40,998 nucleotides of DNA, from NCBI GenBank assembly GCA_039589315.1, contig JBDHHQ010000093.1:1-40998 (forward strand), read 5' to 3'. Made by a program: the position numbers and the translations under genes. Below are positions 3,663-36,795 of this stretch, in pieces (within the stretch, counting starts at the first letter, position 1; each line of letters opens with the position of its first letter). The stretch comes from Gemmatimonadota bacterium (GTDB lineage Bacteria > Gemmatimonadota > Gemmatimonadetes > Longimicrobiales > Gaopeijiaceae). Below the pieces are notes generated by a model. That model was not told where the DNA came from and searched no databases. It was given only the letters and a program-made list of their open reading frames with translations.

Positions 3663-3979
3663 GCGCCTCGCGCTTCCCCCGCCGGCTCCTCCGCCGTCCC
3701 GGACACGACGGCGGCGAGCCTGCCTCGCGCCACCGCAAGCTCCTCCGCGCCCGCCGGGGTGAGGGCGTAGTACCGACGCCTGGGCCGACGTTCGGCTTGG
3801 GCGACCTCGGCGTCCTCCCACTGACCCGTGACGAGACCGCGCGCCTCGAGCCGGCGCAGCGTCGTGTACACGGTTCCGGTACGGAGGGCGGTGCGGTCGA
3901 TGATGTCGAGCCCGTAGCACCGGCGGCCCTCGAGTGTGGCCAAGATCGTGATTGACGTGATCCCCATGAATCGACCCAT
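3659..3979 (-). CDS. PadR family transcriptional regulator
   Basis: YGLDII..TALRTGTVYTTLRRLEARGLV...RPRRRYYALTPAG; GGAGG 7 nt upstream of the ATG at 3979. Confidence 0.92.
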   Translation of the reverse strand: MGRFMGITSITILATLEGRRCYGLDIIDRTALRTGTVYTTLRRLEARGLVTGQWEDAEVAQAERRPRRRYYALTPAGAEELAVARGRLAAVVSGTAEEPAGEARGA

Positions 3980-7151: not shown

Positions 7152-7233
7152 ACCACGCCGAAGGAGGACCTCGGGCCACGTCAGGTAGGTGGGTCGTCTC
7201 GCTGGGGGAGCGGGGGCCCGACCGCGTGCCGAC
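7152..7233 (-). ncRNA. candidate structured RNA element, copy 1 (diverged)
   Basis: Shares GTCGGCAC..GGGCC..GACGACYCACCTACCTGACGTGG with copies at 24919 and 36406; stems CACGC/GCGTG, TCGGGCC/GGCCCGA, CGCT/AGCG. Confidence 0.6.
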
Positions 7234-7305
7234 ATTGACAAGATGCCGCAACGCCGGACCAGCCGACAAGAACTCCGGCACCCGCTGAGCCTCGCATCAG
7301 GCGAA

Positions 7306-7358
7306 GCGGAGGGGGTGGGATTCGAACCCACGTGTCCTTTCGGACGCCGGTTTTCAAG
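7306..7358 (-). pseudogene. 3' half of tRNA-Ser(TGA), att-like remnant
   Basis: CTTGAAAACCGGCGTCCGAAAGGACACGTGGGTTCGAATCCCACCCCCTCCGC has the anticodon loop, long variable arm, T-arm and G discriminator; no D-arm or 5' acceptor strand upstream. Confidence 0.85.
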
Positions 7359-7373
7359 TTCCGTCAGGTTTTC

Positions 7374-7496
7374 TGCGTCTGGTTGCGTTTGGTTGTGTCT
7401 GGCTGCGGGGAAAGGCGATTACGCCGCTCTTCACGGTCGGAGTTTTGCGTTTGGTTGCGTCTGTTCGCGGAGGGCGTTGGCAAAACGTTGGCAGAA
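7374..7496 (+). repeat. short direct repeats beside the tRNA-Ser fragment (candidate integrase arm/accessory sites)
   Basis: 10-mer TGYGTYTGGT-like x3 (7374-7403) and x2 (7446-7465); CGTTGGCARAA x2 (7475-7496). Confidence 0.7.
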
Positions 7497-7687
7497 GCGA
7501 GATGACGCCGCGCCCGATCACCGGATCGCCCGTGAGCTCACGGCCTCCCCGAAAGACTCCTTCGCCAGCGCACACTTCACGCTGTGAGTGAGACACGTAC
7601 CCCTGCGGCAGATGGGCGTCTCGCCGGTAGGACGAATTCCCGGTACATCCTCCGCACGCTGTCCCCTCGCGAAGAGGGCCTTTGTTT

Positions 7688-18969: not shown

Positions 18970-18984
18970 CTGGGTGCTGCGAAG

Positions 18985-19029
18985 ATGGGCCTGGGTAGAC
19001 TCGAACTACCGACCTCACGCTTATCAGGC
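18985..19029 (-). repeat. att site: exact 45-bp duplication of the tRNA-Ile 3' end
   Basis: ATGGGCCTGGGTAGACTCGAACTACCGACCTCACGCTTATCAGGC is identical to 36721-36765. Confidence 0.95.
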
Positions 19030-19201: not shown

Positions 19202-22200
19202 TCACGCTGTTCCCAGTTCGGCCAGCAATGCTTTCGCTTCCTTGAGATCGGCAGTGCCGAACCCCTCGGTGAACCACCCAAAAGCCTCGGCGAGGCTGTC
19301 GCGTGCCTCAGCAGATCGGCCCTGTTCGCGGAGCAAACGGGCGAGGCTGATCCTGGCCCGGAGTTCGTAGGACCGCGCCTCCTGGCTCCGGGCCACTTGA
19401 ATCGCATGCCGGAAGGCCGCCTCTGCCTCGGCCACCTTTGTCTCCGTTAGCCCCAGGTATAGCTCGCCGAGAGTGCGGTGGATCTCCGCCTCGTGACAGA
19501 GCTCGTCGGAGCCCTCGGTGGCAGCATGGGCTTCGTTCAAGACCTTCAGCCCCTCTTCGGCCCGTCCATCCATGAGTAGGGCTTGGGCCAGGAGAGCTGA
19601 ACCCCACGACGCCCAGACCTTCCACCCGATCGCGTGCCATGCCTTCAAGCCTCTTTGAATCGACTGAATTCCCTCAGCCACTTCTCCCTGCTGAGCCGCA
19701 CACCAGCCCGAGTGAATGTCCATGAAGTCATAGTACGCGCCCAGGCCGAGCTCATCTGCTCGCTTCCGGAGGGCTTCACAGACGCGGCGCGCCTCCTGGA
19801 ACTCGCCCCGCCACATATGCGTGTAGACGACATACATCTGCATCAACAGGTGAGTCGAGGGACTCCTGAGGTCCCGGGCGCGTGCAACGGCCTCCTCACC
19901 CCGGACAAGGGCTTGATCGGGATAGCCGACACACCAGAGGATCAGCCCCATCGTTCCGGGTATGGCGCACCCCACGTCAAAGATCGCCGAGAACCTCTCG
20001 TTCCGATGTTCCTCCGGAGCATAGAAGGACTCGAGCTCCTCGTAGTACGCCAGGGCGTTAAGGTGGTCGCCCCTGAGAAAAGCATTCCGTCCAGCCGTAT
20101 CGAGCCCATGGCCCACAAGGCTCTTGTCGCCCACCTCCCGAGCAAGTGAGAGAGCCTCCTCCGCCAACTTCTGCCCCAACCGGTTATCAGGCGCGTAGTG
20201 AGCGAACGTCCAGTACATCGAGTGGAGGGCCCAGAACACCTGGTGTTTCGAACCCGCCCGTTGAGCCAGTTCGTACGCCCGAGACGCAGCTTCCGCCTGC
20301 CCCGGCAGGGCGGTCGCGTGAAGTGCGTTCACCAGTTCCAACTGAATCTCGAGCTCCTGATGATCTCTCTCCAATGCTGGCGGCAGAGCGCGAAGTGCGT
20401 CGAGAGCACCTTTGAAATGACCGACGGCTTCCAGGACGCATCCGATACTCCTGGCTTGGTTCCCGGCCATCTCCAGATACGCCACGGTCTTCTCGGTCGT
20501 CCCTGCCGCCTGAAAATGACGAGCCAACCGGAGTGCGATTTGATCCGTGCGATCCCCGTACAACTGCTCCAACGCTTCTCCCACCTGCTCGTGCAGATGG
20601 ACGCGTTCCACTTCAGTCAGCTGTTCGTACAGGTAGCGTTGGAAGAGGACGTGCCGGAAACGATAGACGGAGAGCCGCGTGCCGTTCACGCGATGGAGCC
20701 CCTCGGAATTCACGAGTCGGTGACGCCTTTCCAGTTCCAGGCTCACCGGCACGACAAGATCACGGACCTCTACCCCCTGAATCCTTGCTGTGGCTTCCAG
20801 AGTGAACTCAGCTCCTTCGACGCTGGCGATCGTCAGCAATCGACGAAGCTCCGCTGGCAGCCTGGCCATTCGTTCCTTGATAACTGCGTCCACGCGGACC
20901 GGCAGTCGGTCCCACCTCAGTCCGGGCGTCTCCACCCAATCACCGTCTTCGTTCCGCACGAGGCTCCCTTGCTCCCGCATGGTGCGGAGCAACTCTACAG
21001 TGAAGAGGGCGTGGCCCTGCGTCTGGCTGTAGAGAGAATCCCTGAAGCCTGTTTCGAGTCGGTTCGGCTCTGCGTCCACCAGTGCGTCCACGAATCGCCG
21101 GTCGCCGGTTGCACCGATCTCGATGAGGACCTCTCCGAATTGCGCCGAGAGTTCGTTGATCACCGGCTCGAGGGGATGCCGTTGGCCATCGCGGCCCAGG
21201 GCTACCTCCGAGGGCCGATAGAGCCCGATCACAAGAATCCGGCTCCCCACCAGTCGTCTTCCCAGCTGGAAAAGAACGGCAACGGAGCCCGCATCGGCCC
21301 ATTGCAGGTCGTCCACGACCAGGAGAAGAGGCCTCTCGCGGGCCAGAGACCGTAGCACGCGTATGAACTGATCCACCACATCAGCCTGTTGGACTCCCCC
21401 ACCCCGGTGATCGACCAACTCACGTAGCGCGTTCCGCTGATTGTCTTTGAGGGCGGGGTGCACATCGGCCCGGGAAAGAAGGCCGCCCTGGATGAAGCTG
21501 CCGACCAGTCCCGGACCACTTTCCATCAGAGCCTGGACCGCGGAAGGCAGGAAACTCCAAAGTCGCGTGGCATGGTCGGCCGAGAGAGAACCTCCAGCCC
21601 ACTGAGCCTCCACGTCTCCGGTCAACAGCCGTAGGATCTCACGGAAAGGATGATGAGGGTCTCCCGGTCCTGTGTGAGCGTCGCAGTTCCCTATTGCCAC
21701 GATGAGACGATCGTCAGATTCGGCCGCTCTCCGACACAACTCCTGGGCCAATGCGGTCTTGCCGCTTCCGGCATCGCCGGTGATGAATCCCACCCGCCCC
21801 TGACCGGCCAAGGCCCCCCTTAGCCATGCCTCCAGCACCTCTGTTTCCTTCTCCCGGCCCACGAACGGCGGCAGGAGTGTCTCGTTCGACGGCTCACTAT
21901 CTGGTGTAAGGAACGGGGGCAGGGTCACCTCGCGCCCGTCGGGGATGTCGTTCGACTCGCCCACAAGGTCGTCGGGGAACTGAACTTCCGGGGCCACGCC
22001 ACCAAGGCTCCCCAGATCGGCCAGCAGCTCGATCATGTCCGCGTAACGGGCCCGACGGTCCTTGGCGAGGGCTCGGACCACGACCCGGTCCAACGCCAAG
22101 GGCACCTCGTGACGGATTGTCCGGATCGCCTTCGGCTGCTCGTGAAGCACGTGATAGAGTGCAGCAACCGGGGTCGCTCCCTTGAAGGGCAGCTGCCCGG

Positions 22201-22822
22201 TCAGCATTTCGTACAAGACGGCTCCCAGCGACCACACGTCTGCTTGGGGCGAGGCTTCGTCCGAGGTAAGCTGCTCAGGCGACCCGTACCCCACCGTGCC
22301 CACCGCGTGTCCGGTCCGAGTGAGACGGTTTGCGCCGGCGAGCTTGGCGATGCCGAAGTCCAGGATCTTCCAGATCCCGTCTTCCGTCGCCCTTAGGTTG
22401 GCTGGTTTGATATCCCTGTGGATGACCCCTCGATCGTGTGCCCTGGACAGGCCGTGGGCGACCTGGCGAGTCACCTCCACTGCATCGAGAATGGCCAGCG
22501 GGCCCCGCTTGAGCTTTTCCGCCAACGTCTCGCCGGCATAGTAGGCCATAGCGATGAACAACTGCCCGTCGTCCGCCTCGTCGATCTCGTAGATCGAGCA
22601 GATGTTCGGGTGATCCAACGCCGAAGCCGCTCGCGCCTCCTGATAGAATCGTTCTTTGGCCCTGTCGTCAGCCACGAGGTGAGGAGGGAGGAACTTGAGA
22701 GCAACGGGTCGCTGAAGCCGGAGGTCCTCGGCTCTGTAAACGACGCCCATGCCCCCCTCACCGAGCTTCTCTTCGATCCGGTAGTGCGATACAACTTGGC
22801 CGATCATCGAAGCCTGATTCAT
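19202..22822 (-). CDS. Ser/Thr protein kinase fused to AAA_16/STAND-like ATPase and TPR-like region
   Basis: GEGGMG, VALK, HRDIKPAN, DFG; FVGRE, GDAGSGKT, LLLVVDDLQWAD; C-terminal A..QEARSYELRA...FTEGFGTADL. Confidence 0.93.
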   Translation of the reverse strand: MNQASMIGQVVSHYRIEEKLGEGGMGVVYRAEDLRLQRPVALKFLPPHLVADDRAKERFYQEARAASALDHPNICSIYEIDEADDGQLFIAMAYYAGETLAEKLKRGPLAILDAVEVTRQVAHGLSRAHDRGVIHRDIKPANLRATEDGIWKILDFGIAKLAGANRLTRTGHAVGTVGYGSPEQLTSDEASPQADVWSLGAVLYEMLTGQLPFKGATPVAALYHVLHEQPKAIRTIRHEVPLALDRVVVRALAKDRRARYADMIELLADLGSLGGVAPEVQFPDDLVGESNDIPDGREVTLPPFLTPDSEPSNETLLPPFVGREKETEVLEAWLRGALAGQGRVGFITGDAGSGKTALAQELCRRAAESDDRLIVAIGNCDAHTGPGDPHHPFREILRLLTGDVEAQWAGGSLSADHATRLWSFLPSAVQALMESGPGLVGSFIQGGLLSRADVHPALKDNQRNALRELVDHRGGGVQQADVVDQFIRVLRSLARERPLLLVVDDLQWADAGSVAVLFQLGRRLVGSRILVIGLYRPSEVALGRDGQRHPLEPVINELSAQFGEVLIEIGATGDRRFVDALVDAEPNRLETGFRDSLYSQTQGHALFTVELLRTMREQGSLVRNEDGDWVETPGLRWDRLPVRVDAVIKERMARLPAELRRLLTIASVEGAEFTLEATARIQGVEVRDLVVPVSLELERRHRLVNSEGLHRVNGTRLSVYRFRHVLFQRYLYEQLTEVERVHLHEQVGEALEQLYGDRTDQIALRLARHFQAAGTTEKTVAYLEMAGNQARSIGCVLEAVGHFKGALDALRALPPALERDHQELEIQLELVNALHATALPGQAEAASRAYELAQRAGSKHQVFWALHSMYWTFAHYAPDNRLGQKLAEEALSLAREVGDKSLVGHGLDTAGRNAFLRGDHLNALAYYEELESFYAPEEHRNERFSAIFDVGCAIPGTMGLILWCVGYPDQALVRGEEAVARARDLRSPSTHLLMQMYVVYTHMWRGEFQEARRVCEALRKRADELGLGAYYDFMDIHSGWCAAQQGEVAEGIQSIQRGLKAWHAIGWKVWASWGSALLAQALLMDGRAEEGLKVLNEAHAATEGSDELCHEAEIHRTLGELYLGLTETKVAEAEAAFRHAIQVARSQEARSYELRARISLARLLREQGRSAEARDSLAEAFGWFTEGFGTADLKEAKALLAELGTA

Positions 22823-22896
22823 CAACTCGATACCTCGACGCGAGCGTCCGGCTTTGGGACCAGCTTGCGCTCCTTGAGCCGGGTCAGGAGGGACAT
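22822..22896 (-). pseudogene. 24-codon stub of a further TolB-N/TPR paralog (MSLLTRLKERKLV...)
   Basis: ATG 3 nt after the upstream stop; matches the RLKERKL N-terminus of the neighbouring family; its TGA overlaps the kinase ATG (TGATG). Confidence 0.7.
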
Positions 22897-22899
22897 CGG

Positions 22900-24876
22900 T
22901 CAGGGCTCGCTTCCGTACTTCTCGAGCAGCGCCTGGAAGCGGGGATCGGCACGGAGGGGGTCCCAGATCGGATCAAGGCGAAGAAGGGGCACGGAGATGG
23001 GCGAAGGGACCGAAAGGAGATGGTCGAGGGCATCAACGGCTGCCTCCGCTTCGCCTGCTTGAGCGAGGATCTCCGCCTCGATGACCTGATAGCCGGGGGT
23101 GAAGTAGACATCCCCTGGAGCGTTGGCCGTCCCCCCGGCCACGTACCGACCCGCGCTTTCTGTGGCTTCGGCCACCTGGCCCAAACCGGCGTAGGTGTAG
23201 CCCATCGCGCCATGGACCCGGAAGTCGTCTGGATTGGCAAAGATGATCGAGTCCAGCATCACACGAGCCGAGTCGAAAGACAGTCGCGCCGCGTCTTCGT
23301 CTCCCCGAATCCGGTGAGCCCAGGCGGCAACGAGGTGCCGGGGTATGATGTAGCCCTGTGACTCCCAGACATCGGGGCCAATCTCCAGGATCTCAAACAG
23401 ACGATCCGGATCGCGGTCCCACCTAGCCAGGTCGAGCCGTGCGTAGAGGTTCTCATCAAGCGCACGGCTGTCGAGGAATGTCCGCAGGGTATCCAGCTCT
23501 CCCATCCAGCGAACGAAGTAGCGCCCCTTTCGGATAGCTGGGGTGTCGAAGTCAGGGGCAAGCTCCAGAGCTCGATCCAAGGCGGCTACGGCATCCGAGT
23601 AGCGTCGGAGGTGCGAGAGCGTGCTTCCGCCAAGGTTGTAGTGGATGTTCACATCCCTGGGATTCAACTGGATGCTCGTGTGATACGCTTCCTCCCAGGC
23701 GCCCCAGTCTCCGAGGCGACGAGACGTATAGCCGATATACTTCGAGGGTTCGGGATCGTTGGGGGCACCCTGTTGAGCGATCCTCAACTCCTCCAGCGCA
23801 GCGTCCAGATCTCCCTGCACGTAGTGGTAGTACCCCATGGCGAAGTGCGCCCACGGTAGATCGGGCTGAAGGCGGAGTGCTTCCATCGCTTGGAATCGCT
23901 GCTCCTCGATCCGCTCGTCTGAAAAGTCCCGAGAATAGAAGTAGGTGACGCCGTGCAGGTACGAGAGCTTTGCACGCGCGAGTGCAAAGTCAGGGTCCAG
24001 ATCAATGGCACGCTGCCACATCTCCTCGGCGATCTCCACGTTCGCCTCAAGCACCCCAGGCCGAGCCCAATAGTCCATTCCCCTCAGAAACAAGGCATAC
24101 GCCTCCGAATTCTCAGTCGGCTTCGCGCCCACTCGACTCTGCTCCTCTGGGCTGATCCTGGCTCCGAGGGCCGACGCTACCTCTTGTGCTACGTCACTCT
24201 CCAATTCGAACAGGTTTCCAGCCGTCAGATCTCGGTCGAAGTTTTCCGCCCAGATCTGGGCTCCGGTCTCATCCAGCAGCTGGAACGTCAGCCTGATCAG
24301 ATCTGCCTGGGGATCCTTCCTGACGCTGCACTCCCCGATGAACCCGACGCCTAGCTCGGCGGCCACCTCGGGCAAGGGCCGTGGATTATCCCGATACCAC
24401 TCGACGGACTCGCGCCCGATGGATAGAAGGGATGAGATCTTGGAGAGCCTGAGGAGGATCTCCTCGTGCAGACCGGCTGCAAGGTAGGCGTCGTCGGCGC
24501 TGGGGCTGAAGTTCTCGCACGGGAGAACCGCGATACCGGGTCGCTCTTCCCCCTCGCGGCTAAGGGAACCCGAGCGTCCATCGCCTCCGAGAAACGAGAG
24601 AACGCCTCCGGCGATGATCAGCAGGACCGTGATCATCATCAGCTCCGGCCCGCTGACTCGCTGCCGCCCCTTCTCTCCGTGGTACCACGCCAGAACCAGC
24701 ACGACTAAGAAGCCCACAGCAACCAGGATCGTGATCGACTGGAGCAGCCGCGTGGACCAATCGAACTGGCCGCCCACGAGGTCCACGCCTTCGAGTAGCG
24801 CCCAGGCCCCGGCGCCGTAGGCCAGAGCCCACTGGAATAGCTTCCGCTCCTTCAGGCGGTCGAAGAACGACGCCAT
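22900..24876 (-). CDS. membrane-anchored TolB-N (adenylate-cyclase-associated) + TPR protein
   Basis: MASFFDRLKERKLFQWALAY + 3 TM helices; IAVLPCENFS..D.YLAAGLHEEI; PTENSEAY; TPRs; DPIWDPLRADPRFQALL. Confidence 0.9.
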   Translation of the reverse strand: MASFFDRLKERKLFQWALAYGAGAWALLEGVDLVGGQFDWSTRLLQSITILVAVGFLVVLVLAWYHGEKGRQRVSGPELMMITVLLIIAGGVLSFLGGDGRSGSLSREGEERPGIAVLPCENFSPSADDAYLAAGLHEEILLRLSKISSLLSIGRESVEWYRDNPRPLPEVAAELGVGFIGECSVRKDPQADLIRLTFQLLDETGAQIWAENFDRDLTAGNLFELESDVAQEVASALGARISPEEQSRVGAKPTENSEAYALFLRGMDYWARPGVLEANVEIAEEMWQRAIDLDPDFALARAKLSYLHGVTYFYSRDFSDERIEEQRFQAMEALRLQPDLPWAHFAMGYYHYVQGDLDAALEELRIAQQGAPNDPEPSKYIGYTSRRLGDWGAWEEAYHTSIQLNPRDVNIHYNLGGSTLSHLRRYSDAVAALDRALELAPDFDTPAIRKGRYFVRWMGELDTLRTFLDSRALDENLYARLDLARWDRDPDRLFEILEIGPDVWESQGYIIPRHLVAAWAHRIRGDEDAARLSFDSARVMLDSIIFANPDDFRVHGAMGYTYAGLGQVAEATESAGRYVAGGTANAPGDVYFTPGYQVIEAEILAQAGEAEAAVDALDHLLSVPSPISVPLLRLDPIWDPLRADPRFQALLEKYGSEP

Positions 24877-25057
24877 GGCGAAGACTCTCGGGCGAGAGGA
24901 ACCGACAGCTCCACGCAGCGGCACACCGAGGGAGGGCTTGGGCCCACGTCAGGTAGGTGAGTCGTCCCGCCAGAAGGCGCGGGTGGCCCGTCCGTGTGCC
25001 GACCCTACGAAGTTGCGGAGTCGAGAGTCCGGAGGGCAAGGCTGGGGTGGGGGCCTG
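24877..25057 (-). repeat. ~180-bp leader duplicated at 36364-36544
   Basis: Near-identical non-coding sequence; similarity continues into the first ~85 codons of both TPR genes. Confidence 0.92.
24919..25003 (-). ncRNA. candidate structured RNA element, copy 2
   Basis: CGGCACAC/GTGTGCCG, GGGCC/GGCCC, CCCGC/GCGGG and ACG..TCA-CCTACC-TGA-CGT stems. Confidence 0.65.
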
Positions 25058-25188
25058 AGACCGCCGGATGTCCCGGTTTCAGGCTGCCGACCGTCATCGG
25101 ATCATTGGGCAAAGACTGGGTCCGCAGTCCGCGTCGACCTACCCACCGGGACCACATGCCGCAGAGGGCATGGATGTGCTGAGGGATG

Positions 25189-27785
25189 CTACCGATTCGA
25201 GAACTCCACGAGCCAGATGTCGCTCGCCTCGACGCCGAGCGAAACGAACAGCTGGTTCGCGGTCAACTCAATGCTATCGAACGTCACAGAATACCGTGGG
25301 GGAGATTGGAACCACGGTCTTGCCGGACCGCTCGGCTGCCCGACGGAGTCGAGGGGAATGCGCCAGATGCTCCGGAGGTCCCGTATGTAGTATAGCGACC
25401 GAGAGTCGTGGGCCCACGCCGCAGAACGCTCGTTCGCTGGGTCTTTGGTGATCCGCCGCGGCGAGCTTCCATCCGAGTCCATCAGCCACAGGTCCCAGCT
25501 GCCATCCAGGAACGCTTCATACGCGATGAAGCGGCCGTCCCGCGACCACCGCGGGTATTCCTCTCCACCTCCGGGCACGTCGAAGACACGAGTTTGTCGT
25601 GAAAGGCCGGTGGCGGAATCGATCTCAGCAATGGCGAGCACGTACGAGCCCCCTGGTCGCGACGCCGTGAACACCATCCGATCGCCGTCGGGGGACCAGT
25701 CATATGACGGCCACTGCCGTCGGGACGCATCAAGTGAATGTACGACCCACCTTCTTCCTCGACCTCGAAGCTGATCCACTGTCCGGGGGGTGATGGCCGC
25801 GGACGAAATTCGGTCGCGGGCGAAGTGGTGAGACGCCGCAACTCGCGCGTGGCAAGCGGCAGGAGCCAGACGTCCAGACTGCCTCGGCGAGTGGACTCGA
25901 AGACAAGGCCGCCCAATGCCTCGGCCCAGCGGGGGCGGGCATCCAGAAAGTCTCGTGTGGTGGTGAGTTGCTCACCGTCAGCCAGTGCTACGCGCGGACG
26001 GTCCGCCGGGAACTCCCAGAGCGTTGCTGCGGTTCGGCGCTTGACCGCCAGAACGGTCGTGTCGCCGCGCACCGAATAGTCGGCAACGTCGAGTCCCGAA
26101 GTGAGCCTGTGGGGAACACTGCGTGCCTCTCCACGTCGCGGGTCGATGGATATCACCCACAGATCAGGAAGCCCGTCGAGGTCCGAAATGAAGAACAAGC
26201 GCTCACCTTCAGCGTCCCACTGAGGTCGCGCCACTCCCGAACCGACTTCCGCGACTTGGCCGGACGACAGTTGGGTCACGTATAGATTGCCGCGGGGCCC
26301 AGTTTGGGAGCTTTTGAAGGCCAGCAACTCGCCATTGGGAGAGAGCTGCCCGGACTGACTTCCTACGTTGGGCAGGTCGCACGTGAGGCATTCCCTATCC
26401 GAGCCGACGGCGGACACGCTGTAGACCTGCTTAGTCCCGGCTTCGTCAAAATCGGTGTACACGAGTCTCCCATCAGGAGCCCACTGAAGCGAAAAGGTGT
26501 AGAGCACGCCGGCCGTAACCGTGGTCACCTTCCGCACAGCCCCTCCGAGCGAGGTCATCGTATAGATGCCGGCGCCGTCCCGAATCGAGTAGAAGGCGAG
26601 GTGCTGTCCATCCGGTGACCAGGTGGGGTGCGCGTCCATGCCCGGGTGCGCCTCCGTGATATTCAGCTGGTTCGTGCCCGCCTGGTCGGAGATCCAGATG
26701 TCTTCGTTACCCGACTCGTCCGAGACGTAGGCGATGAGGTTACCGGCGGGATTCCACGCCGGCTGTTTCTCGATGGCGTTCGTGGTCAGGAACGGCGTTG
26801 TCCGTGGAGTGGCCATCGGATCCTCAACCGGCGGACGCGAGCCGTCGCGTCCGGTCACCCACCACCCGATTCCTGCGGCAGCGAGAGTGAGGCCAGCGCC
26901 GATCGCCCATTGGGTGGGGCGGCGACGCGGGCGCGTAGCTGGATCCACCTCTGCCACTCCTGCAAGCGCGTCGGCGAGCTCGCCTGCAGTGGCGAAGCGG
27001 TCTGCCGGCGACCGGGCCAGCGTCTTCATGACCGCCTGATCAACACGTTCGGGCACGGTCTCTCGCAGCACGCCCGGACGGATGGGACGCTCGGTGATCA
27101 GCTTCGCGACGATCGCGTGCGTGGTGGGCCCGGTGTAAGGTGGCTCCCCCGTCAGCATCTCGTACAACACGGCGCCCAGGGAGTAGATGTCGCTGCGCGC
27201 GTCCGTCGGCTCCCCGGTGGCCTGCTCGGGACTCATGTACTGGGGCGTGCCCACGCTCAGCCCCGTTTGTGTCAATCGCTCCTGACCCGTAGCTGCCACG
27301 GCTTTGGCGATCCCGAAGTCCGCCACCACGGCGTGTCCTTCTTCGAACAGGATGTTCGCTGGCTTGATGTCGCGGTGGATCACGCCTTGCCGATGGGCCA
27401 AGTCCAGGGCTCCGGCCACCTCACGGGCGATCCGGATCGCGTCGTCGAGGGGAAGCTGTCGCTCCCGGTCGAGTCGCTCACGCAGCGATTCGCCCTTGAC
27501 ATACGGCATCACGAAGTAGAGGAGGCCATCGGCCTCTCCCGAATCGTGAACCGGCAGGATGTGGGGATGCGTGAGGTTGGCGGCGATCTCGATCTCGCGC
27601 AGGAATCGTTCGGCTCCGAGGGCCGACGCGAGCTCGGGCTTAAGGACCTTCACCGCGACCTTGCGATGGTGCTTCAGGTCCTCGGCCAAGTAGACCGTGG
27701 CCATCCCGCCCACACCGAGCTCCCGCTCAATGTGGTAGCGGTCAAGCATGGCTGTGTTCAGCCGGGAGACGACGGGATCCGACAC
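25189..27785 (-). pseudogene. Ser/Thr kinase + TM + PD40/TolB beta-propeller, frameshifted near 25705
   Basis: RYHIERELGVGGMATVYLAEDLKH.RKVAVK, HRDIKPAN, DFG, GTPQYMSPEQ; WSPDG repeats continue in a second frame (SYDWSPDG...DIWLVEFSNR*). Confidence 0.88.
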
Positions 27786-28124
27786 CAGCCTGTCCTCGAC
27801 GGGGGCACTGCACCCGCGATCGATCCTACCCCTGTCCAACCGTCGGCATCCCCGGCGGATGGATTGCCCGGTCATGCGGTCCAAACGGGGCAAGACTACC
27901 CCAGCTTCAGGCTAATACACTCCGTCCGGTAGGGGCGTAGGGAAAGGCGAGGGAGTCCGCGTCGGGGTTTGCCCTACGCGACCTCACGCTGAACAAGCGT
28001 GCACTCGGACGACAGTACCTGGGGGGGACCCGCGCATGTGGGTTTCGTTGGAGGGCTCGAAACCCGCACCTACTGATTAAGAGGGGGCAGGTGCGTTCAC
28101 GGAGCTGAAGAGACACGATCAAAC

Positions 28125-30278: not shown

Positions 30279-32960
30279 CTAATCGTGGCGCAGGGCTTCA
30301 GAGGGATCGACGGACAGGGCCCTCCGGACCGGCATGAATGCGGCGGCCAGAGCGATGGCCAGAAGCGCGGGACCCATCAAACCCAAGGCGATGGGATCCG
30401 TGGGCGTGACGCCGTAGAGGAGTCCCGACATCAGGCGGCCCAGAGCCAGGGCGCTCACTCCCCCAATCAGAATCCCCACGAAGATGTCGCGGACCGCCCG
30501 GTTCAGCACGAGGCCGACCACGTGAGTCTTCCCGCCCCCCAGGGCCACCCGGAGGCCGATCTCTCGTGTGCGTCGGCTGGTCGAATAGGACATGACGCCG
30601 TAGACGCTTACGGTCGTCAGAAGGGCGGCGGTCCCGGCGAAGAGCATCATGAGCGTGGTGATGAACCCCATCTCCCGCCGGTCTTCCACCATGCTCTCTG
30701 CCATGGTGGAGACCTCGAATAGCGCCTGGGTGGGATCGATCTCACGAACGAGCTCCCGGACCTGACTGACCACGGCGGCCCTGTTGCCGGGCGCTCGCAC
30801 GAAGATGTTGGTCCGTGCAAGGGGATCCTGAGCCAAAGGGATGTAGACGTCCCTGAGGATCTCACTGTGAATCTGTCCGAGTCCCCGCATTCGGGCATCG
30901 GACACCACGCCCACGACGGCGGGCGGCTCGCTGAATCCACCCACGACCCTTTGGCCAAGGGCCCCTTCCCCCGGCCAGAGGGCATTGGCGGCAGACTCGC
31001 TGACGACGATGCTGGGAGGAGAGTCGGCCTGGTCCGTTTCGTCGAGCATACGCCCCTCGACGAGCTCCAGTCCCAGGCGCTCGAGGGCGCCGGGGCTGAC
31101 GAAGTGGACGAAGGTGTGCAATCCGGCGAATGAGGGATCCGACTCCCGCCCTTCCGGCGCGATGACGCGGAAGAACGAGCTGGACCCTGGCAGGCCCGGG
31201 CCCCAGAGCCCCGCGTCGCTGATGCCGGGGAGTTCCGCCAAACGTCCTTCCAGCTCTCGGTAGGTGACCCGGAGTCGGTCGCGTTCGTACTCCTCACCGT
31301 CCAGCAGAAGCTGCATGTAGACCAGGTCGTCCGTGTTGAAGCCGTAGTCCGTGTGGTTGAACACATAAAGGCTGCGCACCACCAGGCTGGCCCCGGCCAG
31401 GACCGCTACGCTCACGGCAACCTGCGCGATGACCATGCCACGCCGCAGGAGGTTCCGCTCGCGGCTGCGTCCACCCACCCCCGCCTGTCGGAGGGAGGAG
31501 TGAAAGTCACTTCGGGTGCTGCGGAGCACGGGCACGAGTCCGAAGAGGAGGGTCGTCGCCAGAGCCAGCAGCAAGGTCAGGAGGAAGACGCTGCTGTGCA
31601 CCGTCACCTCTGAAAAGGAGTACATGTTCAGAGGATTGCCTGCGAAGATCAGCTTGATGACCAACCAGGCGAGGCCCAATCCGACGCCACCGGCCACGAG
31701 TGTGATGGAGATTCCCTCGGACAACGCCTGATAGACGAACCTGGCGGGTGTGGCTCCCAGAGCCATACGGACCGAGAACTCCTCGGAGCGTTCGACGAAA
31801 CGGGCCACCAGCAGGAGCGTGACGCTGAGGCAGCTCAACAGGAAGACAAGTCCGGCCCCGACCCCCAGGACCGTAACTACCTGATTCAACCTCCCGAAGT
31901 CGCCCCGTAGGTCTGAGAAGGAGGTGATGTGTGCTTCTGTGCCCGCGTTGGCCTCAGGGTATTCCTGCTGCAAGGCGAGGGACACGGCCCGCATGCCGGC
32001 TTGCGCCTGTTCGATGCTGACGCCCTCCCGGAGCCGCCCGACCACGATGGACGTAGTGGAACCCCGGCTCGTATAGATGCCCGCTGACGGCGCAAATCGG
32101 CCTCTCCCGTACGGCACGACGAGATCGAACGGCTCATGGAGCAACCAACGGGCTCTGGGTGACATGACCCCGGCCACGACATGGGGTTGGCCGCCTAGAT
32201 TGACTGTCGTCCCTACGATCTCCGGATCCTCGCCGAACACGGATTGCCAGAAGCCATAACTGAGAACAACCGCCGTCTCGCTCGAGGACGGCTGGTTGTC
32301 CTCTTCCACCAAGGGGCGCCCCAGGGTCATGTCGATGTCGAGAGCCTCGAAAAAATAGGGATCGACGTGGGTCACCATGACCCGCACGTTCCCCTCGGCC
32401 CTCCGAACCGACGAGGCCCAGATCGTGTACGCGGCCAGACCCTCGAAGAAGGGTTCCCCGCCCTCGGCCCAGTCCTGGATGTTCAGGTAGGACGTCGCCT
32501 CACGCACGTGCATGGGCTCGGGGCCTTGTCTCCACAGAAGGACGATTCGATCGGGATCATCGAAGGGCACCGCGCCCATGAAGATCGAGTGCCCGAGGGT
32601 CGTGACGATGGTCACGAAGGAGATCCCGAGGGCCAGGATGAGAATCACCAGCGAGGTGAAGCCGGGCCGCCGGAAGAAAGACCTGAGACCGTAGATCACA
32701 TCCTTGGTGGGCATCGTAGGGATCCTTCTGTGTAGGACGGGATCTCGAGCGTGTCGGACCCGTGAGAAGAGACGGAAAGCGCCGGCGCTGGAACTGAAGG
32801 CTTGTTTCCAGTACCAGCGGGCGGCGCTGCTGCGCCCCATCTGAGCACTGCGCTCGGCGAACTCTTCCTGTAGGTCGCCCAACACGAACTCTGCGACTTC
32901 GGACTCCAGCGCAATGCGCAGTAGGAGGGTCGCCAGGCGTGGAGGGGTGCTTCGACTCAC
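30279..32960 (-). CDS. ABC transporter permease, duplicated MacB_PCD/FtsX (ADOP-type)
   Basis: PPRLA..LL..GDLQEEF..WYWKQ N-terminus, RRPGFT, RRTREIGLRVALG, PVRRALSVDPSEALRHD; GTG overlaps the PadR stop. Confidence 0.92.
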   Translation of the reverse strand: MSRSTPPRLATLLLRIALESEVAEFVLGDLQEEFAERSAQMGRSSAARWYWKQAFSSSAGAFRLFSRVRHARDPVLHRRIPTMPTKDVIYGLRSFFRRPGFTSLVILILALGISFVTIVTTLGHSIFMGAVPFDDPDRIVLLWRQGPEPMHVREATSYLNIQDWAEGGEPFFEGLAAYTIWASSVRRAEGNVRVMVTHVDPYFFEALDIDMTLGRPLVEEDNQPSSSETAVVLSYGFWQSVFGEDPEIVGTTVNLGGQPHVVAGVMSPRARWLLHEPFDLVVPYGRGRFAPSAGIYTSRGSTTSIVVGRLREGVSIEQAQAGMRAVSLALQQEYPEANAGTEAHITSFSDLRGDFGRLNQVVTVLGVGAGLVFLLSCLSVTLLLVARFVERSEEFSVRMALGATPARFVYQALSEGISITLVAGGVGLGLAWLVIKLIFAGNPLNMYSFSEVTVHSSVFLLTLLLALATTLLFGLVPVLRSTRSDFHSSLRQAGVGGRSRERNLLRRGMVIAQVAVSVAVLAGASLVVRSLYVFNHTDYGFNTDDLVYMQLLLDGEEYERDRLRVTYRELEGRLAELPGISDAGLWGPGLPGSSSFFRVIAPEGRESDPSFAGLHTFVHFVSPGALERLGLELVEGRMLDETDQADSPPSIVVSESAANALWPGEGALGQRVVGGFSEPPAVVGVVSDARMRGLGQIHSEILRDVYIPLAQDPLARTNIFVRAPGNRAAVVSQVRELVREIDPTQALFEVSTMAESMVEDRREMGFITTLMMLFAGTAALLTTVSVYGVMSYSTSRRTREIGLRVALGGGKTHVVGLVLNRAVRDIFVGILIGGVSALALGRLMSGLLYGVTPTDPIALGLMGPALLAIALAAAFMPVRRALSVDPSEALRHD

Positions 32961-33313
32961 TCTCCTGCACCCGCATCTAGGCGGGCAACCGCCGCGGCAA
33001 TCTTCGGGCCCAGCCCTTCCGCCATCCTGGTGTAGTCGGTGTAGGAGTTCTGTAGCGCAACGACGCCGGGGTCCTCCAGGCAGTAGTGCCGCTTGCGCCT
33101 TCCCCCGCGCTCCGCCGTGGGCTCTCCGACCTGCGACGAGACCAGGCCCCGCTGCTCCAGCCTTTTGAGTGCGGTGTAGAGGGCGCCGGTGGAGACTTCG
33201 CGCCCCGTGCGCTCCTCGACCTCGCGTCGGAGGGCAAGGCCATAGGCCCCGGGGCCGAGACGCAGCATCGCCAGCAGAATCAGTTCTTCAAAGCGGCCCA
33301 GGGAATCTCGCAT
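32957..33313 (-). CDS. PadR family transcriptional regulator
   Basis: LGRFEELILLAMLRLG..AYG..GALYTALKRLEQRGLV...ERGGRRKRHY. Confidence 0.93.
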   Translation of the reverse strand: MRDSLGRFEELILLAMLRLGPGAYGLALRREVEERTGREVSTGALYTALKRLEQRGLVSSQVGEPTAERGGRRKRHYCLEDPGVVALQNSYTDYTRMAEGLGPKIAAAVARLDAGAGE

Positions 33314-33350
33314 TTCCCTTCTACGTCCTTTGATCACGACTCCAAGTGAT

Positions 33351-34219: not shown

Positions 34220-34272
34220 CGCCCACTGAACGAGCTTGCGCTCCTTGAGCCGGGCCGGGTCACGAGGGATAT
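34220..34272 (-). pseudogene. degenerate stub of a further TolB-N/TPR paralog
   Basis: ATA(ex-ATG) TCC CTC GTG ACC CGG + 5-nt duplication + LKERKLVQWA, starting 3 nt after the upstream stop, as at 22896. Confidence 0.7.
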
Positions 34273-34275
34273 GGG

Positions 34276-36363
34276 TTAGTTCACGCTCGGGGGGGTCTCC
34301 AGCAGCGCCTGAAAGCGAGGATGGTCCCGGAGGGGATCCCAGATGGGATCGACCTCGAGAATGGGGACCGTCAGCCAGGACGGGGCGGGCAGAAGCTCCT
34401 CTAGCAAGTCGATGGCCGCCTCGTGCTCGCCGAAGTGGGCGTAGACGCGGGCGACGACGGCGCAACGAAGCCTCGCTTCCACCGATCTGCAAGCAGACCC
34501 CCGGCTCGGCCCTTCGGGAGATCCTTCGGCGGTCGCCCCGAACTCCTCCAACAGCCGACCTGCACCCTCCATCGCGGCGCTTCGTTCCTCCAGCCCCATG
34601 TACGCGTGGATCAGGCTCACGAGGCGTTGCCCCGCCGTCTCTCCCGGCGCGTCCATGGTGAGGGCCGCCCCTTCGAGCTTGATCCGCACCGAGTCCCAAT
34701 GGGCGCGCGCGAGATCTGAGCGTCCCAGGGCAGCCTCGTGAATCGCGGCGTTCGCGAAGTACCACCAGCGAAGCTGCCCTTCCTCGTCTTTACAGGTGAG
34801 ACACGAGGTCAGCCATCCGTCGAAGGCTCGCACCCGCTGTTCCGCATCGAGGAGCCGTTCAGCCACTCGTTGGGGGCCGTCCTCACGGTGCGCGTAGAAG
34901 GCCCCCGGCCCGTCTCGCAGTAGCTCGGCGGTCGCGGCCGCTGCTCGCTCCCGGTCCCCTCGAGCGATGTGAATGAACACCCTTCTCAGGCCGATCCGTC
35001 CATCCGGCGTCGGCGTGAGCGCGGCCTGCCGATCTGCCGCGTCCAGAGCGTCGTCATACCGATGCGCGGTGATATACGCGTACTGCAGCCTTCTCGGCAC
35101 GAGTGGATCGCGCGGATGCATCCGCTCCAGGCGTTCGTAGGCCTCGATCGCCGCGTCGAGATCCCCGAGTTGCTCTCGGTACGATGCCAGCTGCAGGGCA
35201 ATCTCGAGGTCGCCCGGCGTAGTCTTTTGAGCTGCCGCGAGTTGGGCCAATGCGTCCTCGACTCGTCCCGAGGCCCAGTTGGCTCTCGCCAGAGCGAGTT
35301 GGGCATCCGGCAGGTCAGGGGAAACGGAGAGCGCACGTCTCGCCAACCCCTCGACGCGCTCAGGCGCGGCCCCTGTGTATGCGAAGGTGTAGGTTCCCGA
35401 GAGGGCGAGCCTCGCGAGCGCCAGCGAGAATCCCGGGTCGAGCTGGATGGCAGACTCGTACCAGCGGATGGAGGGCATTTCCGTCCACTCCGTGAACGTC
35501 CCGCGCAGTCTCTCGCTTCGGTAAGCCTCGTTGCCCCGCATGAAGGCTTCGAGAGCTTCCAGGCTCTCGGTGGGGACCGCCTCGAGCCAGTGCAGGTCTT
35601 CGGGAGCGATGGCGGCGCGTAGCTGGTACGCGATGCGCTGCACGATCTCGGCCTGGAGGCCGAAGTAGGCGTCGGGCGAATAAGCTGCGTCGAAGTTCTC
35701 CGCCCACAGGTGCACATCGGTGTCGCCCTGGATCAGCTGGACAGTGATCCGCACGGAGTCGCCGCCCACGCGCGCGCTGCCCTCGAGAAGATAGTCCGCT
35801 CCGAGCTCTTCGGCGATCTGCCGAAGCGCGGGGCGGTTCGCCGGATCCCGGTATTGCTCGAGAGAGGAGCGAGAGACCACCGCCAACGAAGGAATCCGGC
35901 TGAGCGTGGACGTGAGATCCTCCTGTACGCCCGCCGCGAAGAAAGCGTCCTTCGGATCGGGACTCAGGTTGTCTAGTGGGAGCACCGCGATTCTGGGCCG
36001 CTGGTCTTCGCTGCGGGCTCGCTCCTGTTCCGCCAGGTCCCCGGTGGTGACCTGGGCCGGGCCTTCACGATCGCCGAGGGTCGATAGCGCTACGCCCGCG
36101 ACGACCAGTAGAGCTGAGACCATCACCAGCTCGGGTCCACTGACCCGTTGTCGCCCCCTTTCTCCGTGGTACCAGGCGAGAACGAGGGTGACGAAGAAGC
36201 CGACTCCGGCGAGCAGGGTCAGCGCGCGGACGAAGAACTCCGGCCACCCAAAGCGGTCCGAAACGAAGCCCGTGGCTTCGAGGAAGACCCAGGCTCCGGC
36301 GGCGTAGGCCAGAGCCCACTGGAACAGCTTCCGCTCTTTCAGGCGGTCGAAGAACGACGCCAT
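34276..36363 (-). CDS. membrane-anchored TolB-N + TPR protein (paralog of 22900-24876)
   Basis: Same MASFFDRLKERKLFQWALAY N-terminus; IAVLPLDNLSPDPKDAFFAAG; PTESLEA; TPRs; DPIWDPLRDHPRFQALL. Confidence 0.9.
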   Translation of the reverse strand: MASFFDRLKERKLFQWALAYAAGAWVFLEATGFVSDRFGWPEFFVRALTLLAGVGFFVTLVLAWYHGERGRQRVSGPELVMVSALLVVAGVALSTLGDREGPAQVTTGDLAEQERARSEDQRPRIAVLPLDNLSPDPKDAFFAAGVQEDLTSTLSRIPSLAVVSRSSLEQYRDPANRPALRQIAEELGADYLLEGSARVGGDSVRITVQLIQGDTDVHLWAENFDAAYSPDAYFGLQAEIVQRIAYQLRAAIAPEDLHWLEAVPTESLEALEAFMRGNEAYRSERLRGTFTEWTEMPSIRWYESAIQLDPGFSLALARLALSGTYTFAYTGAAPERVEGLARRALSVSPDLPDAQLALARANWASGRVEDALAQLAAAQKTTPGDLEIALQLASYREQLGDLDAAIEAYERLERMHPRDPLVPRRLQYAYITAHRYDDALDAADRQAALTPTPDGRIGLRRVFIHIARGDRERAAAATAELLRDGPGAFYAHREDGPQRVAERLLDAEQRVRAFDGWLTSCLTCKDEEGQLRWWYFANAAIHEAALGRSDLARAHWDSVRIKLEGAALTMDAPGETAGQRLVSLIHAYMGLEERSAAMEGAGRLLEEFGATAEGSPEGPSRGSACRSVEARLRCAVVARVYAHFGEHEAAIDLLEELLPAPSWLTVPILEVDPIWDPLRDHPRFQALLETPPSVN

Positions 36364-36405
36364 GGCGAAGACTCTCGGGCGAGAGGAACCGACAGCTTCA
36401 CACAC

Positions 36406-36491
36406 CAGCACACCGAGGGGAGGGCTTGGGGCCACGTCAGGTAGGTGAGTCGTCCCGCCAGAAGTCGCGGGTGGCCCGTCCATGTGCCGAC
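36406..36491 (-). ncRNA. candidate structured RNA element, copy 3
   Basis: CGGCACAT/GTGTGCTG (two G-U pairs replace G-C pairs of copy 2), GGGCCA/TGGCCC, CCCGC/GCGGG; invariant core. Confidence 0.65.
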
Positions 36492-36684
36492 CCTACGAAG
36501 TTGTGGAGTCGAGAGTCCTGAGGGCAAGACTGGGAGGGGGCCTGGACGTAGGCTCGGCTTCGATCTAACCCCGCGGGCACCTCACGCCGCAGAGGCGTGG
36601 GGTCGCCAAGCGCCTTGTTGACCTGGGCCCAAGGACGTCCGGGCGCGACACGGCGTGCCGAGCGGGTGCCTGACAGAGAACGAA

Positions 36685-36721: not shown

Positions 36722-36795
<74 letters not shown>

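What the first reader, a model, noticed from the sequence alone, without database searches (positions are those of the whole stretch)
24919..25003. Unrecognised ~85-nt structured RNA motif in three copies with covariation (also 7152-7233 and 36406-36491)
Seen: three minus-strand non-coding segments share GTCGGCAC...GGGCC...GACGACYCACCTACCTGACGTGG...CCTCC..TCGGYGTG. They fold alike by eye: P1 CGGCACAC/GTGTGCCG, P2 GGGCC/GGCCC, P3 hairpin CCCGC/GCGGG, and a weak P4 with a constant CCTACC loop, giving a three-way junction. P1 shows a true compensatory change (CACAC/GTGTG to CACGC/GCGTG in copy 1) and two G-C to G-U changes in copy 3. G-U tolerance works only for the minus-strand transcript, which is the sense of the downstream genes. 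A 2-nt indel in copy 1 argues against coding. Copy 1 precedes an unrelated gene (RHH protein), so the element is not just hitch-hiking on the paralog duplication. Inference: a cis-regulatory leader, riboswitch-like RNA or small RNA associated with these islands. I do not recognise it as c-di-GMP, ZMP, SAM, guanidine, hammerhead or HDV-type.
Basis: partly seen in the sequence, partly recalled or inferred. Interest (0 to 1): 0.82.

Follow-up and report, generated by a model that had tools for sequence, protein, structure and literature searches.

The report
Shuffled promoter-leader block heading paralogous genes
The repeated motif is the front part of a roughly 130-base untranslated leader that, together with a promoter and the first codons, has been copied onto 15 fast-changing genes in one bacterial lineage; it probably damps and stabilises their messages rather than being a widespread new riboswitch.

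Summary
The three copies are real and match no Rfam family. They are 3 of 15 copies in this Gemmatimonadota genome. Each starts 4-7 nt after a TTG-N-CA(A/T)CTT promoter-like site, so the motif is the 5' two-thirds of a ~130-nt leader. In 13 of 15 it continues through a second hairpin (P5) that covers the 38 nt before the start codon. It then runs into a 'MASFF...' N-terminus of membrane/TPR paralogs (11) or sulfatase chimeras (2). Copies 2 and 3 have 94% identical leaders on proteins only 36% identical, and the leaders are mosaic. That points to a promoter-leader-N-terminus block spread by recombination. Copy 1 is a truncated remnant of another copy, not an independent use. The three-way junction is not supported: only P1 and P5 fold reliably, and covariation rests on about one event. 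Stems and a 20-nt loop do change less than linkers. No independent homolog was found in the congener or in several hundred phylum genomes; near-identical leaders occur in two sediment runs. Verdict: a real, undescribed, lineage-restricted structured leader, most likely a static stabilise-and-damp element. A regulated switch remains possible (about 20%).

The parts
25010..25039 (-). Promoter-like site of copy 2: -35 TTGCCC (25039-25034), 18-nt spacer, -10 CAACTT (25015-25010); +1 predicted near 25004-25003
   Evidence: Present before 15 of 15 copies; spacing enriched genome-wide; not detected by the E. coli-type consensus scan
24919..25003 (-).
24878..24914 (-). Copy 2, leader domain 2: hairpin P5 covering the region just before the ATG
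   Evidence: Mean z -2.7, SCI 0.89; about -15 kcal/mol versus -9.4+/-2.6 in 60 homologous genes
22900..24876 (-). 658-aa gene headed by copy 2: MASFF N-terminus with three hydrophobic stretches, TPR repeats, TPR_END_plus domain
22851..22975 (-). Conserved 3' junction block: last codons, stop, and start of a next-paralog fragment; 9 long copies in the genome
   Evidence: also in G001
36498..36527 (-). Promoter-like site of copy 3
36364..36491 (-). Copy 3, full leader (domain 1 36491-36406, P5 36401-36365)
34276..36363 (-). 695-aa TPR paralog headed by copy 3; 36% identical to the copy-2 protein
34230..34350 (-). Second copy of the 3' junction block
36722..36795 (-). tRNA-Ile(GAT), about 200 nt upstream of the copy-3 promoter; its 3' end is duplicated at 18981-19029
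7240..7269 (-). Promoter-like site of copy 1 (TTGTCG-N18-CATCTT)
7154..7233 (-). Copy 1: truncated leader; homology to the other copies ends at 7154 inside P1; P5 absent
7307..7520 (-). tRNA-Ser(TGA) 3' remnant with an upstream repeat block (att-like), found in many further places in the genome
6957..7112 (-). 51-aa DUF6364/CcdA-like protein joined behind the broken copy 1

Best explanation
The motif is the 5' part of a ~130-nt untranslated leader. The leader belongs to a portable 'expression head': promoter, leader and first ~25-85 codons. Homologous recombination or gene conversion has grafted this head onto many divergent accessory genes of one lineage (shown: copy number, promoter position, mosaic identity; inferred: RecA-type exchange at conserved 5' and 3' blocks). 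As RNA, P1 pairs the transcript's first bases with position ~85, and P5 buries the ribosome-binding region. The likely result is a stable but weakly translated message for membrane-anchored proteins (inferred from folding and from recalled knowledge of 5' stems and RBS hairpins; not measured). Copy 1 is a broken remnant.
For: 15 of 15 copies follow TTGnnn-N17/18-CAWCYT. That pattern has 21 non-leader hits at this spacing versus 5-10 at four other spacings, 18 of 21 with a sense ORF downstream. A related TTG-N-xAxCTT pattern precedes 7 of 52 ARAGORN-called genes, and the CATCTT form precedes 8 of 62 homologous genes in other genomes, with short leaders lacking the motif. Leaders of copies 2 and 3 are 94%/93% identical while their proteins are 36% identical. 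Mosaics: C27:6048 domain 1 is 0.87-0.88 to class B but domain 2 is 0.93 to copy 2; copy 3 and C214 are identical in domain 2 and codons 11-25 but 0.53 in codons 26-55. The genes share 5' and 3' blocks around divergent middles. Paired columns change less than unpaired ones (0.61 vs 1.37 per column, p=4e-5); among the 10 closest copies P5 stems have 1 change in 24 columns versus 7 in the 10-column loop. P5 probability is >=0.88 in 10 of 13 copies.
Against: There is no RNA evidence that the leader is transcribed or where it starts. The structure was derived from these same sequences, so the stem-versus-loop test is partly circular. Pair-keeping changes are not in significant excess (12 keep, 19 break, p=0.19). 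A purely static role does not explain why the unpaired 20-nt loop is the most conserved part of domain 1 among the 10 closest copies (0.15 changes per column). It also does not explain why homology stops sharply at the -10 box among class-B copies (spacer 0.24-0.35 versus leader 0.87-0.88). No recombination intermediate was observed.
Confidence: 0.6

Rival explanations
1. A young regulated switch. The conserved 20-nt loop binds a ligand, protein or small RNA, or itself pairs with the start-codon region or P5's 5' arm, toggling access to the start codon of the membrane/TPR and sulfatase genes.
For: It begins at the predicted +1 and ends on an RBS-covering hairpin. The loop is highly conserved. 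A 12-nt loop segment pairs with the start window better than 91-99.5% of downstream windows in 13 of 15 copies. Copies 2 and C27:2634 populate a loop-to-CDS fold at 0.38-0.45.
Against: The loop-to-CDS fold has probability <=0.12 in the other 13 copies. The longer duplex beats genomic background (<2%) in only 2 of 15. Antisense alignment to the CDS is not significant (p 0.11-0.14 for copy 2). Copies are related and the test was post hoc. There is no spread beyond the lineage, no terminator, no Rfam match and no shared metabolic theme downstream.
Confidence: 0.2
2. A DNA-level recombination handle or plain hitch-hiker. The sequence persists only because conversion homogenises it, and the hairpins are incidental in 67% G+C DNA.
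For: Domain 1 is not more stable than shuffles and folds as well on the antisense strand. Covariation counts are not above controls (pairs changed on both sides 4 vs 2.7, 104/500). Copies lie beside tRNA att remnants, an IS-like end and palindromes. Three copies (C201:806, C62:6245, C80) are decaying.
Against: Linkers and the P5 loop change 5-15 times faster than adjoining stems inside the same converted block. P5 stability is strand-biased (z -2.7 vs -0.84) and unusual for this gene family.
Confidence: 0.13
3. An independent small RNA or self-cleaving ribozyme released from the 5' end.
For: Domain 1 is closed by P1 as a self-contained ~85-nt unit, and 2 of 15 copies have domain 1 without P5.
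Against: No Rfam ribozyme or sRNA match even at E<=10. No terminator after P1. By eye it lacks the HDV nested double pseudoknot (the candidate P1 has 4 pairs, with no G for P1.1). One of the two P5-less copies is itself broken in P1.
Confidence: 0.05
4. The region is protein-coding (an N-terminal extension or leader peptide).
For: In copy 3 and in the C1 copy a frame open across the leader is continuous with the gene.
Against: 1- and 2-nt indels between copies shift the frame in domain 1, and in three copies in domain 2. Homologs elsewhere start at the MASFF position.
Confidence: 0.02

Closest known systems
Staphylococcus aureus lpl tandem paralog cluster on island nuSa-alpha (PMC2568036; abstract and section list read)
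   Same: Island-borne tandem paralogs are reshuffled by homologous recombination at conserved stretches, so a block spanning non-coding DNA and part of an ORF, not the ORF, is the unit of evolution.
   Different: There the conserved site is central in the ORF. Here the conserved blocks are promoter + structured leader + N-terminus and a 3' junction, spread over many loci and grafted also onto sulfatases.
Conserved-end gene-conversion families such as Helicobacter pylori babA/babB and Mycoplasma synoviae vlhA (recalled, not tested)
   Same: Conserved 5' and 3' ends flank variable middles and allow exchange between loci.
   Different: There is no single expression site here: 15 loci each carry the promoter, and no host-immunity context is known.
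Static 5'-UTR structures: ompA-type 5' stem and RBS-occluding hairpins or RNA thermometers (recalled)
   Same: A helix at the transcript's 5' end plus a bulged hairpin over the initiation region.
   Different: No sequence or model match; a 20-nt conserved internal loop is unexplained; temperature response untested.
Orphan structured-RNA motifs from comparative genomics (PMC5737381; passages read)
   Same: Conserved non-coding sequence upstream of genes with apparent stems; that paper also notes such motifs can be ssDNA elements such as attC.
   Different: Those motifs were kept only with convincing covariation. Here covariation is about one event and the range is one lineage.

Membership tests
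Any Rfam 15 family (riboswitch, ribozyme, sRNA) | Score at or above a family's gathering threshold | tested here: not met
   Window: only tRNA. Copy 2 best E=3.8. Seven loci holding eight copies: no hit over the motif.
Riboswitch-class cis-regulatory RNA | Located in a 5' UTR, in the sense of the downstream gene | tested here: met
   15 of 15 between a promoter-like site and a sense ORF; position predicted, not mapped.
Riboswitch-class cis-regulatory RNA | Multiple independent compensatory changes | tested here: not met
   4 pairs vs 2.7 shuffled, 104/500; 4 vs 1.9, 33/500; the clear P1 change is one class split.
Riboswitch-class cis-regulatory RNA | Conservation across lineages with a coherent gene association | tested here: not met
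   No independent homolog; the only other genome (G540) carries near-identical contigs.
Riboswitch-class cis-regulatory RNA | Expression platform (terminator or RBS-sequestering helix) | tested here: inconclusive
   RBS hairpin present; no terminator; an alternative fold is predicted in only 2 of 15 copies.
Riboswitch-class cis-regulatory RNA | Ligand-dependent structural change | not testable with these tools
   Needs probing.
HDV-like / hammerhead ribozymes | Nested double pseudoknot or conserved catalytic core | tested here: not met
   No Rfam hit; by eye on the alignment the candidate P1 has 4 pairs and no P1.1 guanine; no descriptor search was run.
Recombination-shuffled paralog cassette (lpl-like) | Conserved blocks flanking divergent middles in paralogs | tested here: met
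   5' block about -181..+260 and ~115-nt 3' block, 77-93% identical, with unalignable middles.
Recombination-shuffled paralog cassette (lpl-like) | Incongruent similarity between adjacent segments | tested here: met
   Segment-wise identities; no formal breakpoint test was run.
Recombination-shuffled paralog cassette (lpl-like) | Different arrangements at the same locus in different strains | not testable with these tools
   Only one genome of the species is held; short contigs in X2 and X3 do not span genes.
Integron attC / MITE | Fixed ends with attC core sites or terminal inverted repeats and target duplications | tested here: inconclusive
   Ends are ragged (5' homology stops at the -10 box, at about -45 or further up); no attC core or terminal repeat seen by eye; no dedicated scan.

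The most novel reading that the evidence does not exclude
A recently evolved, lineage-specific translational switch. Its invariant 20-nt loop senses a factor and toggles a hairpin over the start codon. It is being spread by recombination as a plug-in promoter-plus-switch onto unrelated membrane receptors and sulfatases, so a regulon is being built by moving an RNA regulator.
Probability: 0.2. Interest if true: 0.75.

Novelty: new variant of a known kind. Interest (0 to 1): 0.4.

Why it matters
It shows how an uncultured sediment Gemmatimonadota lineage may put very different accessory genes under one promoter and one structured leader by swapping a small block. It also gives a phylum-specific promoter signature (TTG...N17-18...xAxCTT). 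It is a caution that multi-copy 'covarying' motifs inside one genome can be paralog leaders. If the conserved loop proves to be a sensor, it would be a rare view of a regulatory RNA caught while spreading.

Tried and rejected
Rfam scans: nothing over the motif. Exact-pattern scans of metagenome contigs, genome contigs and viral contigs: 0 matches; these need exact cores and missed the variant copies in G540, so they are weak negatives. Plasmids: one 44-nt match at E=0.6. Phages: none. Weak hits in G046, G029, G050, G144, G237, G414, G418, G200 and G309 (22-47 nt or <=28 bits): those re-scored or inspected lack the conserved loop or break the stems and were rejected as chance; G414 was not re-scored. 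G540 (=G404, locus L083) holds 3 copies, but on contigs 99.9% and 98.4% identical end to end to G000 contigs, so it is not counted as independent (mis-binning or very recent sharing; not resolved). The idea that domain 1 is an inverted copy of the gene's first codons looked striking in copy 2 (14 of 16) but was not significant. No RNA holder was listed, which says nothing on expression. The E. coli-type promoter scan found nothing. The ESM Atlas gave only unnamed clusters for the N-terminus. Earlier-findings look-ups were empty. Literature searches (listings only) showed no description of this motif or promoter; supplements of the motif-discovery papers were not read and could hold it.

Full report
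1. Observation. They are clearly homologous (BLAST E 5e-13 and 1e-9 for copy 1 against copies 2 and 3). Rfam has no match at gathering level. The best weak match over copy 2 is a miRNA model at E=3.8, and eight copies scanned at E<=5 gave nothing over the motif. The individual base changes cited are real. The shared fold is not: single-sequence z-scores are +1.65, -1.26 and +0.21.

2. How many copies, and in front of what. A profile of the three copies finds 14 matches at E<=1.3e-4 in the 6.67-Mb genome and a 15th at E=0.31. The 15th is collinear and has the same upstream site. In 13 of 15 the conservation runs on for about 45 nt to a start codon. Eleven head 'MASFF..LKERKL' genes, a family with three hydrophobic N-terminal stretches and TPR repeats; one of these is cut to 56 aa. 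Two head sulfatases with a chimeric N-terminus. The N-terminal probe has 50 matches in this genome and 20 in the congener G001; most lack the leader. The best homologs in named genomes are mostly Gemmatimonadota. Copy 1 precedes a DUF6364/CcdA-like gene. It is 93% identical over 340 nt to the copy at C27:6048, including the tRNA-Ser att remnant upstream, and diverges abruptly at 7154 inside the 3' strand of P1. It is a broken derivative, so it does not show independent use. The only intact-looking case of domain 1 before an unrelated gene is the most diverged copy (C201:1870).

3. It is a 5' leader. All 15 copies follow TTGnnn-N17/18-CA(A/T)C(C/T)T by 4-7 nt. Genome-wide, TTGC-N20-CAWCTT occurs 33 times versus 2-10 at the 13 other spacings. 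Without the leader copies it occurs 21 times versus 5-10 at four control spacings, and 18 of the 21 have a sense ORF downstream. A related TTG-N16-18-xAxCTT precedes 7 of 52 ARAGORN-called genes. The CATCTT form precedes 8 of 62 homologous genes examined in other genomes (62 of the 78 loci; most of those left out had little upstream DNA or were not Gemmatimonadota), always with a short leader lacking the motif. I infer a housekeeping-type promoter with +1 at the GTCGG that opens the motif. This is not mapped, and the E. coli consensus scan does not call it.

4. Structure. On 13 full-length copies RNAalifold gives P1 (8 bp), a short extension, P2, and a 12-bp bulged hairpin P5 ending 1-2 nt before the ATG. 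Per-copy pair probabilities: P1 is >=0.67 in 12 of 13; P5 is >=0.88 in 10 of 13; P2 exceeds 0.5 in 4; P3 exceeds 0.5 in 3. Domain 1 has mean z -1.07 (antisense -1.45) and SCI 0.51; domain 2 has z -2.7 (antisense -0.84) and SCI 0.89. The 40 nt before the ATG fold at about -15 kcal/mol in 10 copies, against -9.4+/-2.6 in 60 homologous genes, of which 1 is as low. My structure gives 4 versus 1.9 (33/500; cells paired 5/500, a level related sequences can reach without structure). On a tree, paired columns change less than unpaired ones (0.61 vs 1.37, p=4e-5; 10 closest copies 0.25 vs 0.62, p=0.003). The P1-P5 linker changes fastest, and the 20-nt unpaired loop is the most conserved part of domain 1 in the 10 closest copies. 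Pair-keeping changes are not in excess (12 vs 19) and G-U versus A-C is 10 vs 7. So selection on P1, P5 and the loop is plausible, but covariation does not prove it.

5. How it spread. Copies 2 and 3 share 94% and 93% identity in the two leader domains but head proteins that are 36% identical. Among seven close copies, mean identity is 0.83 (spacer), 0.94, 0.95 (leader), 0.92, 0.87 (codons 1-25), then 0.63 (codons 26-55). Segments are mosaic (examples under best explanation). The genes also share a ~115-nt 3' block running from the last codons into the start of a next paralog or fragment. It is found 9 times at >=100 nt here and also in G001. The loci lie among tRNA 3' remnants, an IS-like end and short palindromes. 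None of the leader-headed genes had a counterpart above 46% identity among the 15 G001 loci I held (not the whole G001 genome). This is the anatomy of cassettes exchanged by homologous recombination at conserved ends, as described for the S. aureus lpl cluster (PMC2568036; abstract and outline seen). The mechanism is inferred.

6. Range. No convincing match in 60 relatives by DNA, in G001, in 150 family genomes, 150 order genomes or 150 phylum genomes by covariance model, or in 400 class genomes by DNA; these sets overlap. Of 313 family genomes by DNA, one (G540) has real copies, on contigs essentially identical to G000's. Of 78 loci around protein homologs, only that same contig hit. Short contigs in two of three sediment runs carry the leader with 5-6 differences over 75-185 nt, so it exists outside this assembly, in close relatives.

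7. Mechanism. Most likely (0.6) the block supplies a promoter and a leader whose P1 shields the 5' end and whose P5 limits ribosome access, giving stable, low-level expression of membrane-anchored proteins. The roles of 5' stems and RBS hairpins are recalled knowledge, not tested here. A regulated switch (0.2) is kept alive by the conserved loop and its 9-10 bp complementarity to the start-codon region. The alternative fold is populated in only 2 of 15 copies and the longer antisense match is not significant. DNA-only hitch-hiking (0.13), sRNA or ribozyme (0.05) and coding (0.02) are less likely.

8. Novelty. I found no description in six literature searches (listings only). Passages of PMC5737381 and PMC10469786 do not mention it; their supplements were not read. 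It works like a recombination-shuffled paralog head with a structured 5' UTR. It is not a member of any Rfam family and fails the covariation and distribution tests for a riboswitch class. Rating: new variant of a known kind, interest 0.4.

Noticed in passing
window 18981-19029 and 27979-28013: A 49-nt duplicate of the tRNA-Ile 3' end and a weaker 35-nt look-alike divide 19-36.8 kb into tandem island-like blocks, each with one leader-headed TPR gene; no integrase was seen in them.
   Followed up: partly
window 7307-7520; G000 C27, C142, C1, C184: An att-like block of tandem TTGCCAAC and ACGCAACC repeats joined to a tRNA-Ser(TGA) 3' fragment recurs about a dozen times in the genome, 8-9 times on contig C27 alone.
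   Followed up: partly
genome-wide (G000) and homolog loci L084-L156: Candidate Gemmatimonadota housekeeping promoter TTG...N17-18...xAxCTT; the TTGC/CATCTT form often precedes kinase and TPR signalling genes.
   Followed up: partly
window 918-3920 and 30279-33337: Two ADOP-family duplicated permeases, one with its PadR regulator.
   Followed up: no
window 19202-22825 and 25482-27893: Ser/Thr kinase-AAA-TPR and kinase-PD40 genes; a broken kinase start follows the copy-3 gene at about 34150-34020.
   Followed up: no
window about 25150-25175 and 36575-36605: Short palindromes of the CACGCC...GGCGTG type upstream of copies 2 and 3 and of the C170 copy; they resemble REP or IS200/IS605-type ends (recalled resemblance).
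   Followed up: no
G000:C1:164791-164868 versus L168:1899-1952: The tRNA-Ser(TGA) on C1 lacks about 8 nt of the variable arm that the att fragments and the G540 contig keep; an assembly or strain variant.
   Followed up: no
G000:C68:16206-18887: A cluster of 16 or more tRNA genes in a row.
   Followed up: no
L168 and L169 (G540 C168, C112): Contigs of a genome assigned to another genus are 98.4-99.9% identical end to end to G000 C1, C201 and C207: mis-binning or very recent transfer.
   Followed up: partly
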